A DNA stretch of 21,037 bases, taken from contig NW_021823859.1 of the NCBI RefSeq assembly GCF_006345805.1, forward strand, positions 1 through 21,037, in the 5' to 3' direction. Of the stretch, positions 1 through 17,152 are shown piece by piece. The notes beneath the pieces were generated by a model, which ran no database searches, was not told the DNA's origin, and saw nothing but the letters and a program-made list of their open reading frames with translations. Position 1 is the first letter of the stretch, and every line of letters starts with the position of its first letter. Origin of the DNA: Octopus sinensis. Lineage: Eukaryota. The position numbers and the translations under genes are program-made.

Positions 1-48
1 ACTATATACATATTATATATATATACATATATATATATACATACTATA

Positions 49-260
49 GGGTTCAAGAAGTCTTTGGACAGATTCCTTCAAGAAATCCCGGATAAACCCC
101 CTACACCCGGATATGTCTCTGTAAACAATAACTCTCTACTTGAGTGGGCCATAGTGCCCAAATTCTGACTTGAAAGACTTCACCAGGTGGTGCTATTAAG
201 TTAGACATGGCCTGGGCCAATAATGGCCGAAACCTATCAAAGTATCAAAGTATCAAAGTA
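49..260 (+). mobile_element. 3' end of a CR1-group LINE (ORF2 C-terminus, 3' UTR hairpin, octamer tail)
   Basis: 49-168 reads GFKKSLDRFLQEIPDKPPTPGYVSVNNNSLLEWAIVPKF*, which resembles the FK..LD.FL..IPD.P...GY...NSL terminus of invertebrate CR1-group ORF2. It is followed by the hairpin GGCCA-ATAA-TGGCC (215-228) and (TATCAAAG)x3 at 235-258. Short tandem tails are typical of CR1. Confidence 0.75.
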
Positions 261-534: not shown

Positions 535-887
535 GCCCCATGACCGTTTTTTCCTGGCACTCTTTTTATGTTCTTTTTTCTCTTCCTTCTTTCCTCAAAT
601 ATCAGTTGAAGGACTATTTCCGAAACGTTATGACTTTTACGCTATTCCTTCATATATTCCTTCCTTATATTAAGGAAGAGAATGAAGTGGGAACTTCATT
701 TCATTGCATAATTGTACAATTGTTTCATCAACATTTTACCAGAAGATTAATGCTGCAATATTTATGATATAGAAAAAATACATCGCATCAGTATTATTAT
801 ACCAGTGCTGGAAAATATCTACCTCATGGAATATATGTGTGTGCGTGTGTGTGTCTATATGTATTTGTATACATATACATATACATG

Positions 888-919
<32 letters not shown>

Positions 920-924
<5 letters not shown>

Positions 925-1474
925 AAAGATAAATGCGATACTATAAAATTAATTATAATCGCCGGTGTACCAGTACACGCCATATATTATACATATATCA
1001 TTACATTCAAGGCGAAGAGTGCACTAGATACACAATAGCTGGATAAATTTAGTGAGATGAAAATTAAAAACTTTTACAAACTTAACTTTTCTTATACTGC
1101 AGTTTCGCCAAATTCAGTAATAAAAATAGTATTTATTTACTCAGGCTGGCTCTTCAGTAAGATTCCTGTTAATGATGGGAAGACCATATCAATAGACCCA
1201 TGTGCGTCTATCGAAATGCTCTTTCTAAACTATTCAAAACACTGCGCAGACTCAGAACAAACCCGACAAAATAGGGGATTGTGGTATATCGTCTAACGGT
1301 CAGAAATTTATCGAGAGAATATGTAAACAAAGATAAATGCGATACTATAAAATTAATTATAATCGCCGGTGTACCAGTACACGCCATATATTATACATAT
1401 ATCATTACATTCAAGGCGAAGAGTGCACTAGATACACAATAGCTGGATAAATTTAGTGAGATGAAAATTAAAAA
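920..1474 (-). mobile_element. Candidate non-LTR retrozyme / non-autonomous Penelope-like element: about 1.37 tandem copies of a 404-bp unit
   Basis: 920-1070 is identical to 1324-1474 (151 bp, offset 404). The unique part contains a hammerhead motif. There is no convincing ORF, and both flanks are TA-rich microsatellites. Confidence 0.7.
1090..1162 (-). ncRNA. Minimal type I hammerhead ribozyme
   Basis: Minus strand reads UCUUA-CUGAAGA-GCCA(AU-rich hairpin)UGGC-GAAA-C-UGCA-GUA|UAAGA. It has an intact CUGANGA/GAAA core, a 5-bp stem I (UCUUA/UAAGA), stem II GCCA/UGGC, a 2-bp stem III with palindromic loop (ACUGCAGU) and a GUA cleavage triplet. The predicted cut is between 1095 and 1094. Confidence 0.85.
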
Positions 1475-1498
1475 ATATATACATATATATACACACAC

Positions 1499-1571
<73 letters not shown>

Positions 1572-1635
1572 CACACACACACATATATATATACACACAC
1601 ACACACACATATATATATATACACACACACACACA

Positions 1636-1679
<44 letters not shown>

Positions 1680-1712
1680 CACACACATATGTATATACAC
1701 ACACACACACAC

Positions 1713-1743
<31 letters not shown>

Positions 1744-1817
1744 TATATATACACACACACACACACACACATATATACACACACACACACACACAACACA
1801 CACACACACATATATAT

Positions 1818-1870
<53 letters not shown>

Positions 1871-5649: not shown

Positions 5650-6317
5650 CATAGAAACCGTTTGCTATTTTCTCCTATTTTACAATTAAATCAACGTTTT
5701 ATATAAGTGACTACCAAGATTAATCAAACCGATTTAATTACCGCTTTATGGTATATTTTATAGAGATAAAACAGCATACCTTTGACTATTAATAATACTT
5801 TATGCGCCAATGAAGGCGCCTATGACTACAAACACTTCCGTCTTAATTTCTGTTTTTATGGTTCATTGAATAAACAATCAAAACCCTATACATTATTAGC
5901 AGATCGTCAAATGCGCGGTGAACAGCGATAATCAAAGCAATGACATGCATGGCTGTCTCTAATCCATTCCGGTTGATTCGAACCTGACAACACACTCGAT
6001 CGCCGTGTTTCGTCATCCTGAGTCAGCCCGGATGAGTGAATCACGCAAAAGTCGATGTTGTTGTTTATAACTTGAGCGAACAAATTGTTCGCTGATCCGT
6101 GCTAATATCTGTCCGCCGAAAATAAATCGTCGTATGCACGCTGAACAGCGAGGATCATTATGATAACTTTCATGTTTATTCTTAACCCGTTCCAGAAGAC
6201 TTGAACGTGAATACGCTAATTGTTGTTGTTTCGTCACAAGTGTACAACTTCCTCTTTACGACGAATATGTGTTCAAAACACACTCCACTCATTAGCATAA
6301 GTGATCCTGGGACATCC

Positions 6318-6346
6318 GACGTTTCGACATCGTTGTGTCTCGTCAG
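6318..6346 (-). ncRNA. Hammerhead ribozyme core, probably degenerate
   Basis: Minus strand reads CUGACGA-GACA-caacga-UGUC-GAAAC-GUC. The core, stem II and Penelope-type ACGU palindrome are present, but the bases next to the core (AA/GG) do not form stem I directly. Confidence 0.5.
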
Positions 6347-6448
6347 TTAGAAGTACCCAAGGACCGATCAATCTAAGAAGAACTTTAGTTCAGCGGCTCG
6401 CAAACTTTTTTCGGGTTGCCGTCCCCTGGGCACTCGGACTATATTCCA

Positions 6449-14499: not shown

Positions 14500-14536
<37 letters not shown>

Positions 14537-14542
14537 AACATC

Positions 14543-15794
14543 ATGGAGTCGCCATTGAGTTCAATGGACTCACCAGATAATTCAATATTGGATATGCCTG
14601 TTTTTGTAACAGGTGAAAAGGAGGTATCACCGGCGCTGACACCGAAAAAGTCCGCTGAGGTAGTCGGAAAAAGGGAAACTCAGTTAAACCCTGAGATAAG
14701 TAATCTAAAGAGATTGATGTCATTTCTCAAAAAGGAGGGGACCGAGATAAAAGTAGCCCATCGGGAAGAAACAACAGACCAAGTCAACGGGAGAAGGATT
14801 TTGTACAAAACGTACAACATAAGCAAAAAAAAAAGAATAATCAGAACCGAGGAAAAAATAGTAGAGAAATGTCTCAGACCTATTTGGACTGAGATCACAT
14901 TAACCGAGGTAAAAGATTCGGAACAGTTGAAGTCTGGTTTAAGTCGGAGGAAGTAGCCAGGCGGTACTCCCTGGAGACCCTAAGAACGGGGGAAGTGGTT
15001 CTTCTCCCCGTATATATGGGAAGAAGAACATCAAAAGTGAAAATCAAGAACATCCCTCCGAAAGTCGATGCCACCTGTTTAGTGGCAGCTATCATCATGG
15101 GGCTGGAGGAAAAAATAACGCTTCTCCAGGCCTCAGTAGAAAAAGAAGAGAACTGGAAGGGACAATGCCTGACAATGTTAATAAAGATGTCCCAACCCTG
15201 GAGGAAATACCCGAAATTATAAATGTCGGCGAAGAAAAATTAATAGTGTTCGTAGAAGGAAGAAAGTCAAGGTGCTTTAACTGCGGTTTAAAGGTCCACA
15301 TATGGTCGGAGTGCAAACCAAAAGAAAAACAACAACAAGAAGAAATAGAAGAATCAGCAACTGAAACACCAACACCAATACCGAAAGAAAATACAACACC
15401 GATATAAACAGAAGAGAGTGAAGATAAAGACAGAAAGGAGGGGTAGTCGACTGTGTCCAAAAAAAAAAGAAGAAGAAAGCACAGGCCACCCTTACCAAAC
15501 TGAACTTTAAAAAAAAATTAACAAGAAAATGAGAATACATATATGGCCATCAAGGCGTCTAATAATAGACTTATCAACCGTTTGGCAGCCACTTCATCTG
15601 CCAAATGGGTTGAAAAAACAACTTTGAAAGACTTTCTCATTTACAGGACAGGCCGGAAGTCTTCCACGACGTAGGCCCGCTCAGGATGGATTTTTCTCCA
15701 TACATTTACGGCGGCCTTCGTCCAAATACCCCACGAACCCGAGGAAAGGAGAGAAAAAAAAGAACACCAGAACGAAGAAACCTCGAACCACTGA
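14543..15794 (+). pseudogene. Tx1/L1-type ORF1 (gag-like, CCHC zinc knuckle), frameshifted
   Basis: ORF pieces 14543-14956, 14995-15222 and 15165-15407 contain VKIKNIPP and VFVEGRKSRCFNCGLKVHIWSEC (CX2CX4HX4C, 15273-15314). They lie directly upstream of ORF2. The 3' end is approximate. Confidence 0.75.
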
Positions 15795-15808
15795 TGCAGA
15801 GGTAAGTA

Positions 15809-17152
15809 ATGTCGAACATTTATGTTGGTTGCTTAAGTGTGCGTGGCCTGGTGTCAAGCTGGAAGCAAGGTCGCTTCCTTAATGACATCAGGTCGCGTAA
15901 TTTGGATGTTATTGTTGCTACAGAAACCCGGTTAAGGGGGCCAAGAGATCTGCTCCCGCTGCTTGATGGCTACGAGAGTTTTTTTTTCTCCAGGCTGTCC
16001 TTCTAGCGGAAGCGGGGTGTTGGTCCTGTTAAAAAGAAACCGGGTTTCTGAGAAAAAGTTGATTTTTACAGATCCAGAAGGTAGGCTGGTCGTCATGGAC
16101 TGGACGTTCAACTATGGTAAAGTTATCAGACTGGTTGCAATTTATGCACCCACGCCAACCGAGCAAAGTGAATATTTTTGGAATCTGGAGAAGTTTCTTG
16201 GTACTTCACATTCTTTAGTTGTGCTAGGAGACTATAACACAATCTGCGAGGCACGCGTAGATTATGTTGGCTCGTGTACAGATAGAAAAGGTAATCCTTG
16301 CTTCCTGGAACTGCTAAGCCGCTTTGAGCTAGCAGATCCTTATAGGTTGGAATTTCCGAATGCTCCATTGTAGACATGGTCAAATAGCGACGGATCTTCC
16401 AGGTCATACCTAGATAGAGTGTTAGACAAGGGGGATTCCGTTGATAATTTTCGGCCCATCACTCTGCTAAACGCAGAGTTGAAGATTTTGGCCAAAGTGT
16501 CATCGAAAAGATTGGTGCGTGCCGCGGATGGTCTGATCGGGGAGGCACAGACATGTGCCGTTCCCGGCAAACCATCCAGGATAATCTCCATCTTATACGG
16601 TACACTTTAGAGGGGTTTAATAGTGATTCTTGCAAGGGTGAGGCACTGGTCCATTTAGACCAATGTAAGGTTTTTGAAAGGGTTGACCATCGCTACCTGG
16701 TGTCCGTTCTGGCGCAGTTCGGCCTGGGTCTTGGCTTCCTCGGGTGGATCATTCAGATTTATGACAACGTCGACTCGGTAGTTCGGGTGAACGGCTTCTT
16801 ATCGAGGCTGTTCAACATCAAGCGCTCGGTTCGTCAAGCGTGTCCGGTCTCTACGCTTTTGTACGTGATGGCTCTTGATCCATTACTGTGAAAATTGAGC
16901 GGCATCCCGAGACAGCCAGGTTGTGGAAAGTCGGTGTCAGCTTACGCGGATGACATCACCATCATCGTAACCGAAATGGATCACCTACAGAGGGTAGGCA
17001 AGGCCATCAAGGTTTACGAGACGGTGACAGGAGCAAAAGTTAATCGTGAAAAGTCAGTCGGCTTGTAGCTCGGCACCTGGAGAGGCAAGTCGATGCCTCC
17101 AGACTGCGTCGTGGGACGTTGGACGGAGGGTCCGATTAAGTTGCTAGGAGTG
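15809..17152 (+). pseudogene. Tx1/L1-type ORF2: APE endonuclease plus reverse transcriptase, internally deleted, with stops and frameshifts
   Basis: EN motifs: CLSVRGL, ATET, GVLVLL, AIYAPT, VLGDYN, TWSN...SYLDRVL. RT motifs: NFRPITLLNAELKILAK, RTIQDNLHLIR, LDQCKVFERVDH, VRQACPVSTLLY, SAYADDIT, YETVTGAKVNREKS, IKLLGV. Confidence 0.92.

What the first reader, a model, noticed from the sequence alone, without database searches (positions are those of the whole stretch)
920..1474. Greater-than-unit-length (1.37x) copy with perfect 151-bp terminal redundancy inside TA microsatellites
Seen: 920-1070 equals 1324-1474 with no mismatch I can find, period 404 bp. There are no TG...CA ends or obvious PBS/PPT, and both junctions run straight into (TA)n. 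Inference: this is the footprint expected from reverse transcription running more than once around a 404-nt circular RNA, or from a partial tandem pLTR, with integration at AT-rich simple repeats by a Penelope-type RT/GIY-YIG in trans. The identity of the repeats implies a recent event. With only one ribozyme, this copy could not by itself release a unit-length monomer.
Basis: partly seen in the sequence, partly recalled or inferred. Interest (0 to 1): 0.75.

Follow-up and report, generated by a model that had tools for sequence, protein, structure and literature searches.

The report
One-armed retrozyme mimicking Hydra priming site
This is an ordinary, cut-short copy of a young 404-base non-coding repeat with a hammerhead-ribozyme motif; its many copies all start at one fixed point, where it shares a short sequence with the end of a Hydra-type Penelope retrotransposon, so that transposon's enzyme likely copies it, probably by running round a small RNA circle.

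Summary
Observation confirmed: 920-1070 equals 1324-1474 exactly. The redundancy is not special. The locus is a 1.37-unit copy of a dispersed family (at least 180 insertions, 22-4541 nt, up to 11.2 units) with a type I hammerhead motif on the minus strand. Copies cross the cleavage site with no excess of ends there (2 of 144 passes, 1.1 expected), and arrays are internally uniform. This fits a circular monomer template, but uncleaved multimer RNA is not excluded. No copy joins a coding element. The best unit-versus-element match to a young Hydra-clade Penelope family (19 of 22 bases) lies at both elements' fixed ends, which names a candidate enzyme. Unlike that family and a sister retrozyme, this family inserts with one arm. 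Cleavage, circles and enzyme use are untested. The kind is known (animal non-LTR retrozymes), and this scan has found similar families before in this and other genomes.

The parts
920..1474 (-). Whole insertion, 1.37 units; RNA sense is the minus strand
920..1323 (-). One full 404-nt unit; 920 is the family's fixed end (inferred start of reverse transcription)
   Evidence: 100% identical to the first unit of L002
1324..1474 (-). Partial second unit (151 nt); 1474 is this copy's variable, truncated end
1091..1161 (-). Type I hammerhead motif: 4-bp stem I, core at 1157-1151, stem II with a long AU-rich hairpin, short palindromic stem III; cleavage predicted between 1095 and 1094
   Evidence: activity untested
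1303..1324 (-). 22-nt motif spanning the unit junction (the fixed-end site); 19 of 22 identical to the end of a Hydra-clade Penelope pLTR
958..979 (-). Small predicted hairpin in the first unit where 19 of 99 insertions end (unit positions 45-58); possible stall site
   Evidence: only -5.0 kcal/mol
856..919 (.). (TA)n-rich target microsatellite at the fixed end
1475..1870 (.). TA/CA compound microsatellite at the variable end

Best explanation
The locus is a cut-short copy of a dispersed, non-coding 404-nt hammerhead repeat whose insertions share one fixed end at (TA)n, and it was likely made by a Hydra-clade Penelope reverse transcriptase/endonuclease priming at that fixed internal site on a probably circular monomer RNA and stopping after 1.37 turns. 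Shown: family, fixed end, variable end, TA target, uniform arrays, no coding attachment, shared 22-nt motif. Inferred steps: (1) arrays with two or more ribozymes are transcribed and self-cleave to a 404-nt monomer, perhaps as dimers through the palindromic stem III; (2) a host ligase closes the monomer; (3) the Hydra protein recognises the motif just 3' of the start site and nicks (TA)n; (4) the TA-ended DNA primer pairs with the short AU stretch at the site; (5) the enzyme copies across the sealed cleavage site for a random distance, and the cDNA end is joined back into the same TA run, giving a one-armed insertion. This copy has one ribozyme and would be a dead end.
For: Fixed end: 46 of 47 regions start at unit position 1-4; 180 exact junctions, control 0. 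Variable end: 22-4541 nt in 99 insertions, 45 longer than one unit. Template continuous across the cleavage site: 57 of 99 pass it; 2 ends in 144 passes against 1.1 expected. One haplotype per array: in 32 arrays, 153 shared and 8 array-private variants are in all units, against 21 in subsets and 131 in single units; 0.59% within, 2.2% between arrays; 11 array types among 19 arrays of three or more units. Ribozyme under constraint: stems I and III invariant in 9 sequences from three families about 70-88% alike; core and stem III substitution rate 0.50% against 1.54% elsewhere. Partner: best 22-nt match of the whole unit against the whole 2590-nt Hydra period is 19 of 22 at both fixed ends; reached by 1 of 200 random units globally and 0 of 20000 anchored; the motif is conserved in sister families; no third family carries it with other spacer letters (6 matches, all from these families; and the places listed). 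The Hydra family is young (median 99.1% identity among top hits), abundant (1358 end motifs) and TA-targeting. 9 of 100 junctions keep the unit's own G before the fixed end, as expected if priming slides within an AU microhomology.
Against: No cleavage, circle or enzyme assay. Closed 434-nt contigs in runs only guessed to be RNA fit tandem RNA or DNA equally well. Uniform arrays also arise from uncleaved transcripts of uniform arrays; in the one Penelope element tested in vitro the unprocessed RNA is the main template (PMC11167929). One 8.8-unit array has private variants four units apart, a sign of local duplication or mis-assembly; 8 of 106 units are closer to another array's type and 54 tie. 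The motif is short, AT-rich and its 22-nt width was chosen after seeing it; an older Neptune-like family shares its first half; only two coding Penelope families were sampled in depth. The Hydra family uses two ends about 70 nt apart and is often two-armed (10 of 30), while this family uses one end and is one-armed; most Hydra ends lie 8-14 nt 3' of this family's end. The monomer is not unusually structured (z about -1.0), the ribozyme fold is not the minimum-energy fold, and stem II covariation is not significant on the automatic alignment.
Confidence: 0.6

Rival explanations
1. Same enzyme class and fixed start, but the template is an uncleaved linear multimer transcript of a long genomic array (Penelope-style partial tandem), not a circle.
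For: Arrays of 8-11 units exist as possible sources; uniform sources give uniform daughters; the anole Penelope enzyme uses unprocessed RNA and starts internally (PMC11167929); a chimeric retrocopy kept the ribozyme uncut through splicing (L155).
Against: New variants become fixed in every unit of an array (8 private, 153 shared), which needs a one-unit bottleneck followed by re-expansion; no ordered pattern of unit variants is shared between loci (read by eye); an 11-unit copy needs eleven ribozymes uncut; the ribozyme core is conserved across families.
Confidence: 0.25
2. Short insertions (one to two units, by template jumping or pLTR-like copying) were later lengthened at the DNA level by unequal exchange or slippage.
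For: The array at C7:75.72 Mb shows four-unit periodic private variants; 21 subset variants in all.
Against: Subset variants are few against whole-array variants; lengths decay smoothly at about 1-2 ends per kb beyond 100 nt; very young arrays already hold many units.
Confidence: 0.08
3. A retrozyme as described, but mobilised by another Penelope family (Neptune-like, or the family whose end closes the L155 chimera) or by a LINE; the 22-nt match reflects shared TA-pairing needs. This rival concerns only the partner and can hold together with the circle model.
For: Several Penelope families end in similar AT-rich words; the one-armed pattern differs from Hydra's; sampling of coding families was limited.
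Against: Ten of the 19 matching bases lie 3' of the priming microhomology and are not TA-like in pattern; the sampled Neptune-like family is old (about 80-88% protein identity, many stops); there is no poly(A) or LINE-type tail at the fixed end.
Confidence: 0.25
4. TRIM/LTR-like element, the pLTR of a coding element, or an assembly artefact.
For: Terminal redundancy at this one locus.
Against: The redundancy length differs at every locus; no copy continues into coding sequence; unique flanks differ from the sibling locus L002.
Confidence: 0.03

Closest known systems
Animal non-LTR retrozymes (Cervera and de la Pena 2020, PMC7229834, parts 2-4 of 6 read; review PMC7761336, passages; Li, Clavereau and Pollet, bioRxiv 10.64898/2026.07.22.740005, parts 1-3 of 5 read)
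   Same: Non-coding tandem unit of 150-450 bp, low GC, one type I hammerhead per unit, dispersed monomers to multimers, co-occurring Penelope-like elements; proposed circle, reverse transcription and tandem cDNA cycle.
   Different: Here a single fixed start, a 99-copy truncation census and a candidate partner motif are resolved. The 2020 review states that such repeats show no conserved motif pointing to their autonomous partner. The 2026 preprint links retrozymes to pLTRs by broad homology, whereas this unit shares only about 22 nt with the candidate. Circles and cleavage are shown for coral, mussel and axolotl but not here.
Poseidon element of the green anole (Frangieh et al. 2024, PMC11167929, parts 1-2 of 4 read)
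   Same: Reverse transcription starts inside the RNA, downstream of the hammerhead; AT-rich target; needs RNA 3' of the start.
   Different: That element is coding, has two start sites, has no homology between start site and target, and uses unprocessed RNA. This family is non-coding, has one start site 175 nt from the cleavage site, and has a short AU microhomology to (TA)n.
Hydra clade of Penelope-like elements and non-autonomous Chlamys elements such as MRC1 (Craig et al. 2021, PMC8557442, passages and section 11 read)
   Same: (TA)n targeting, 5' truncation, head-to-tail copies, similarity of non-autonomous to autonomous elements at the 3' end.
   Different: Chlamys elements mostly lack hammerheads; Hydra elements are coding and often carry an inverted arm, which this family lacks.

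Membership tests
Animal non-LTR retrozyme | Tandem unit of about 150-450 bp, multi-copy and dispersed | tested here: met
   404 nt, up to 11.2 units, at least 180 insertions
Animal non-LTR retrozyme | Type I hammerhead motif in each unit | tested here: met
   235 exact 22-mers; 295 matches including sister families; Rfam gave no hit
Animal non-LTR retrozyme | No protein coding, no LTRs, GC below 50% | tested here: met
   longest stop-free stretch about 85 codons (by eye); GC about 0.33; only one end fixed. PBS/PPT not searched against tRNAs
Animal non-LTR retrozyme | Two consecutive ribozymes (the preprint's criterion for an active copy), this locus | tested here: not met
   one motif in 920-1474; so this is an inactive derivative
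Animal non-LTR retrozyme | Two consecutive ribozymes, the family | tested here: met
   25 of 99 insertions are long enough
Animal non-LTR retrozyme | Self-cleavage in vitro | not testable with these tools
   needs transcription assay
Animal non-LTR retrozyme | Circular RNA in vivo | tested here: inconclusive
   closed 404+30-nt contigs in 2 of 4 runs laid and a junction in a third, runs only guessed to be RNA; tandem arrays give the same
Animal non-LTR retrozyme | Target-site duplication larger than 4 bp when present | tested here: inconclusive
   both flanks are TA runs in 81 of 100, so a duplication cannot be read
pLTR of a coding Penelope-like element | Unit continues into an RT/GIY-YIG frame | tested here: not met
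   0 of 131 loci continue in register; 10 have separate Penelope protein fragments nearby (read by eye)
pLTR of a coding Penelope-like element | Extended DNA homology to a pLTR | tested here: not met
   no significant blastn hit in 60 loci of two coding families; other families not sampled
TRIM / LTR element | Two fixed termini with TG...CA | tested here: not met
Hydra clade (candidate partner, L293 copy) | RWK, DKT, CxCX5C linker, C-terminal GIY-YIG, under 3 kb, (TA)n target | tested here: met
   717-aa frame and 2590-nt period read against section 11 of PMC8557442; GIY-YIG weak in Pfam, E 0.0064; no tree was built
Hydra clade (candidate partner, L293 copy) | Canonical hammerhead in the pLTR | tested here: inconclusive
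   my motif scan found none; a hammerhead-like fold with a changed core base is visible by eye

The most novel reading that the evidence does not exclude
A circular ribozyme RNA has evolved a 22-nt mimic of a Hydra-clade Penelope element's own priming signal and is copied by rolling-circle target-primed reverse transcription from one fixed site. This would give the first named enzyme-cargo pair for an animal retrozyme. Because it inserts with one arm while the helper and a sister retrozyme insert with two, it would also be a natural mutant that separates the two priming events of Penelope integration.
Probability: 0.38. Interest if true: 0.75.

Novelty: new member of a known kind. Interest (0 to 1): 0.5.

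Why it matters
The 1.37-unit copy alone is ordinary. The family makes two open points testable. Which enzyme spreads animal retrozymes is only hypothesised in the papers read; here a young coding family, an exact start site and a mutable 22-nt motif are named. Whether the template is a circle or an uncut multimer is also open; the census shows it is continuous across the cleavage site and passes through one-unit bottlenecks. One-armed and two-armed sister families with the same ribozyme core offer a comparison for how Penelope elements form inverted ends. If true, this is also a small natural cis-signal for directing a circular RNA into (TA)n.

Tried and rejected
Rfam: no match at gathering thresholds. 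A Pfam accession recalled for a Penelope domain was not in the library. Permuted start points: rejected. A second start about 80 nt upstream, as the sister family appears to use: 0 exact matches. Linear cleaved monomer as template: rejected, no first-unit pile-up at position 175. Window contig as a duplicate of the L002 locus: rejected, no shared unique flank in 3 kb. Homology of the unit to the pLTRs of two coding families: none beyond the motif. Source copy for the L155 chimera: none within 130 kb upstream or 25 kb downstream of its exons. Expression: no RNA holder listed on record; contigs laid cannot show strand, ends or level, and the chimera's exons had no cover, which is no evidence either way. 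Special folding of the circular monomer: z about -1.0. Stem II covariation: one search used a mis-registered structure and is void; one search is correct but not significant, and the automatic alignment misplaces the most divergent family by one column, so the double changes are read by eye only. Rows changed before the census count: of the first 100 of 180 junctions listed, one duplicate segment was dropped and one copy with an internal deletion was set by hand to 454 nt; one locus first fetched on the wrong side was re-fetched. Literature searches found no report of this family or of a retrozyme-Hydra pairing; supplements of the papers (Hydra family lists, bioRxiv tables) were not read and could hold related sequences; PMC5785218 is not held.

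Full report
Observation. Window 920-1070 and 1324-1474 are identical over 151 nt at period 404. The left flank is (TA)n; the right is an imperfect TA run leading into a TA/CA microsatellite. The minus strand carries one type I hammerhead motif at 1091-1161, with a 4-bp stem I, an extended stem II and a short palindromic stem III; cleavage is predicted between 1095 and 1094, unit position 175/176. Rfam has no match. The unit has no long frame and about 33% GC.

Family. The own genome (2.72 Gb) gave 108 matches from 40 scored of 760 candidates, 235 exact ribozyme 22-mers and 180 exact junctions of a TA run with the window-920 end; reversed-pattern controls were 0. In 47 merged regions picked by similarity or by the ribozyme, 46 start at unit position 1-4. 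So one end is fixed; on the ribozyme strand it is the 3' end of the insertion. I censused the first 100 of the 180 junctions, dropping one duplicate and correcting one by hand. Lengths run from 22 to 4541 nt; 45 of 99 exceed one unit; 25 are long enough for two ribozymes; 19 end at positions 45-58, at a weak hairpin; 81 of 100 variable ends run into TA within 8 nt. The window's copy is an unremarkable member. Its unit is identical to the first unit of a 1.62-unit copy on another contig, the two alone share one variant, and their unique flanks differ.

Template. The fixed end lies 175 nt 3' of the cleavage site, so priming is internal. A cleaved linear monomer would give copies of at most 175 nt. 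Instead 57 of 99 pass that point, and only 2 ends fall there in 144 passes (1.1 expected). The template is therefore either re-ligated or uncut. Arrays are uniform inside: in 32 arrays, 153 shared and 8 private variants are in all units, 21 in subsets and 131 in single units; differences are 0.59% within and 2.2% between arrays, with 11 types among 19 arrays of three or more units. Repeated fixation of new variants across whole arrays needs a one-unit bottleneck, which a circle supplies (inference). Against this: uncut transcripts of uniform arrays also give uniform daughters; one array has private variants four units apart; 8 of 106 units are nearer another array's type and 54 tie. Public contigs from runs guessed to be RNA close on themselves at 404+30 nt in 2 of 4 runs laid, which cannot tell circle from tandem.

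Ribozyme constraint. Two sister families exist, about 88% and 70% alike, with units near 403 and 435 nt and the same fixed end. Stems I and III are invariant in 9 sequences, and stem II shows double changes by eye, but the covariation test is not significant. Within the family, core and stem III vary at 0.50% against 1.54% elsewhere. The catalytic fold is not the lowest-energy fold of the monomer. Dimer-assisted cleavage through a weak palindromic stem III is described for related ribozymes (PMC7229834) and is only inferred here.

Partner. No copy continues into coding sequence (0 of 131 loci), and the unit has no extended homology to 60 loci of two coding Penelope families. One of these is young (median 99.1% identity among 31 top alignments), has a 717-aa frame with the RWK, DKT and CxCX5C marks of the Hydra clade, 1358 exact end motifs and (TA)n flanks. 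The best ungapped 22-nt match of the whole unit against its whole 2590-nt period is 19 of 22, and it sits at the fixed end of both (1 of 200 random units globally, 0 of 20000 anchored; width chosen after the fact). The motif is kept in the sister families, and a genome-wide pattern with other spacer letters gave 6 matches, all from these families (two are places already held as family copies). The motif begins with an AU stretch that can pair with a TA-ended primer; 9 of 100 junctions keep the unit's G there. In the anole Poseidon element, reverse transcription also starts internally, downstream of the ribozyme, and needs RNA 3' of the start (PMC11167929). Caveats: an older Neptune-like family shares the first half of the motif, other Penelope families were not sampled, and the Hydra family has two ends about 70 nt apart and inverted arms in 10 of 30 loci.

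One arm. Earlier scan notes stress two-armed insertions with two fixed starts, so I tested that. This family has an inverted arm in 0 of 130 loci, the chimera L155 aside, and no second start at the position tested. The 70% sister family is two-armed in 5 of 9 loci read by eye. I have no shown cause for the difference.

Known kinds. The family meets the sequence criteria of animal non-LTR retrozymes (PMC7229834, parts 2-4 of 6 read; bioRxiv 10.64898/2026.07.22.740005, parts 1-3 of 5); this copy fails the two-ribozyme criterion. Both papers propose Penelope elements as helpers. A review says no motif points to the partner (PMC7761336, passages). Non-autonomous head-to-tail Penelope derivatives with 3'-end similarity are known in algae (PMC8557442, passages and section 11; preprint passages). 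An octopus repeat annotation has no mention of ribozymes or retrozymes (PMC13282606, term search). Five searches found no report of this family; supplements were not read. Earlier scan notes call this genome an octopus; I did not test that. The scan has many similar families but none matched this sequence.

Verdict. Real, and explained as a truncated copy of a retrozyme family. Membership of the kind about 0.9; the full mechanism with circle and Hydra enzyme 0.6. New member of a known kind, interest 0.5, carried by the motif and the one-armed pattern, not by the 151-bp redundancy.

Noticed in passing
L155:1665-3345 (G000:C3:162.24 Mb): A 1.68-kb, 99.5% perfect inverted repeat in (TA)n. Each arm joins unit positions 310-167 (with the ribozyme) to four collinear exon-like pieces of G000:C4:43.455-43.499 Mb at splice-like junctions, then to the 3' end of another high-copy hammerhead family. 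It looks like a spliced chimeric transcript retroposed by Penelope machinery; no source copy of the unit lies within 130 kb upstream.
   Followed up: partly
L032, L234-L241; L231-L233, L311, L315, L316: Two sister retrozyme families (about 70% and 80-88% alike; units near 435 and 403 nt) with the same ribozyme core and fixed end. The distant one is often two-armed with two start sites about 100 nt apart; the close one looked one-armed in 6 loci.
   Followed up: partly
L281-L310: Young Hydra-clade Penelope family with intact 717-aa frames, two fixed ends about 70 nt apart and a hammerhead-like pLTR fold with a changed core base.
   Followed up: partly
G000:C7:75.72 Mb (L003, L019): 8.8-unit array with private variants repeated four units apart: local duplication, mis-assembly or a larger template.
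   Followed up: partly
L021/L043 (G000:C4:117.37 Mb): Two identical-length 1.36-unit copies 1.86 kb apart, probably a local segment duplication.
   Followed up: no
window 535-830: TA-flanked non-coding segment with a decayed hammerhead-like core on the plus strand near 608-630; no match among loci held.
   Followed up: no
window about 6310-6350, minus strand: Second hammerhead-like core with a 4-bp stem II but no clear stem I.
   Followed up: no
window 14534-16891, plus strand: Decayed LINE-like element: weak endonuclease (E 3.5e-4) and reverse transcriptase (E 4.6e-4) matches, both below Pfam cut-offs, after a possible zinc-knuckle frame.
   Followed up: partly
window 44-260: TA-flanked repeat piece also present in other loci held; not classified.
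   Followed up: no
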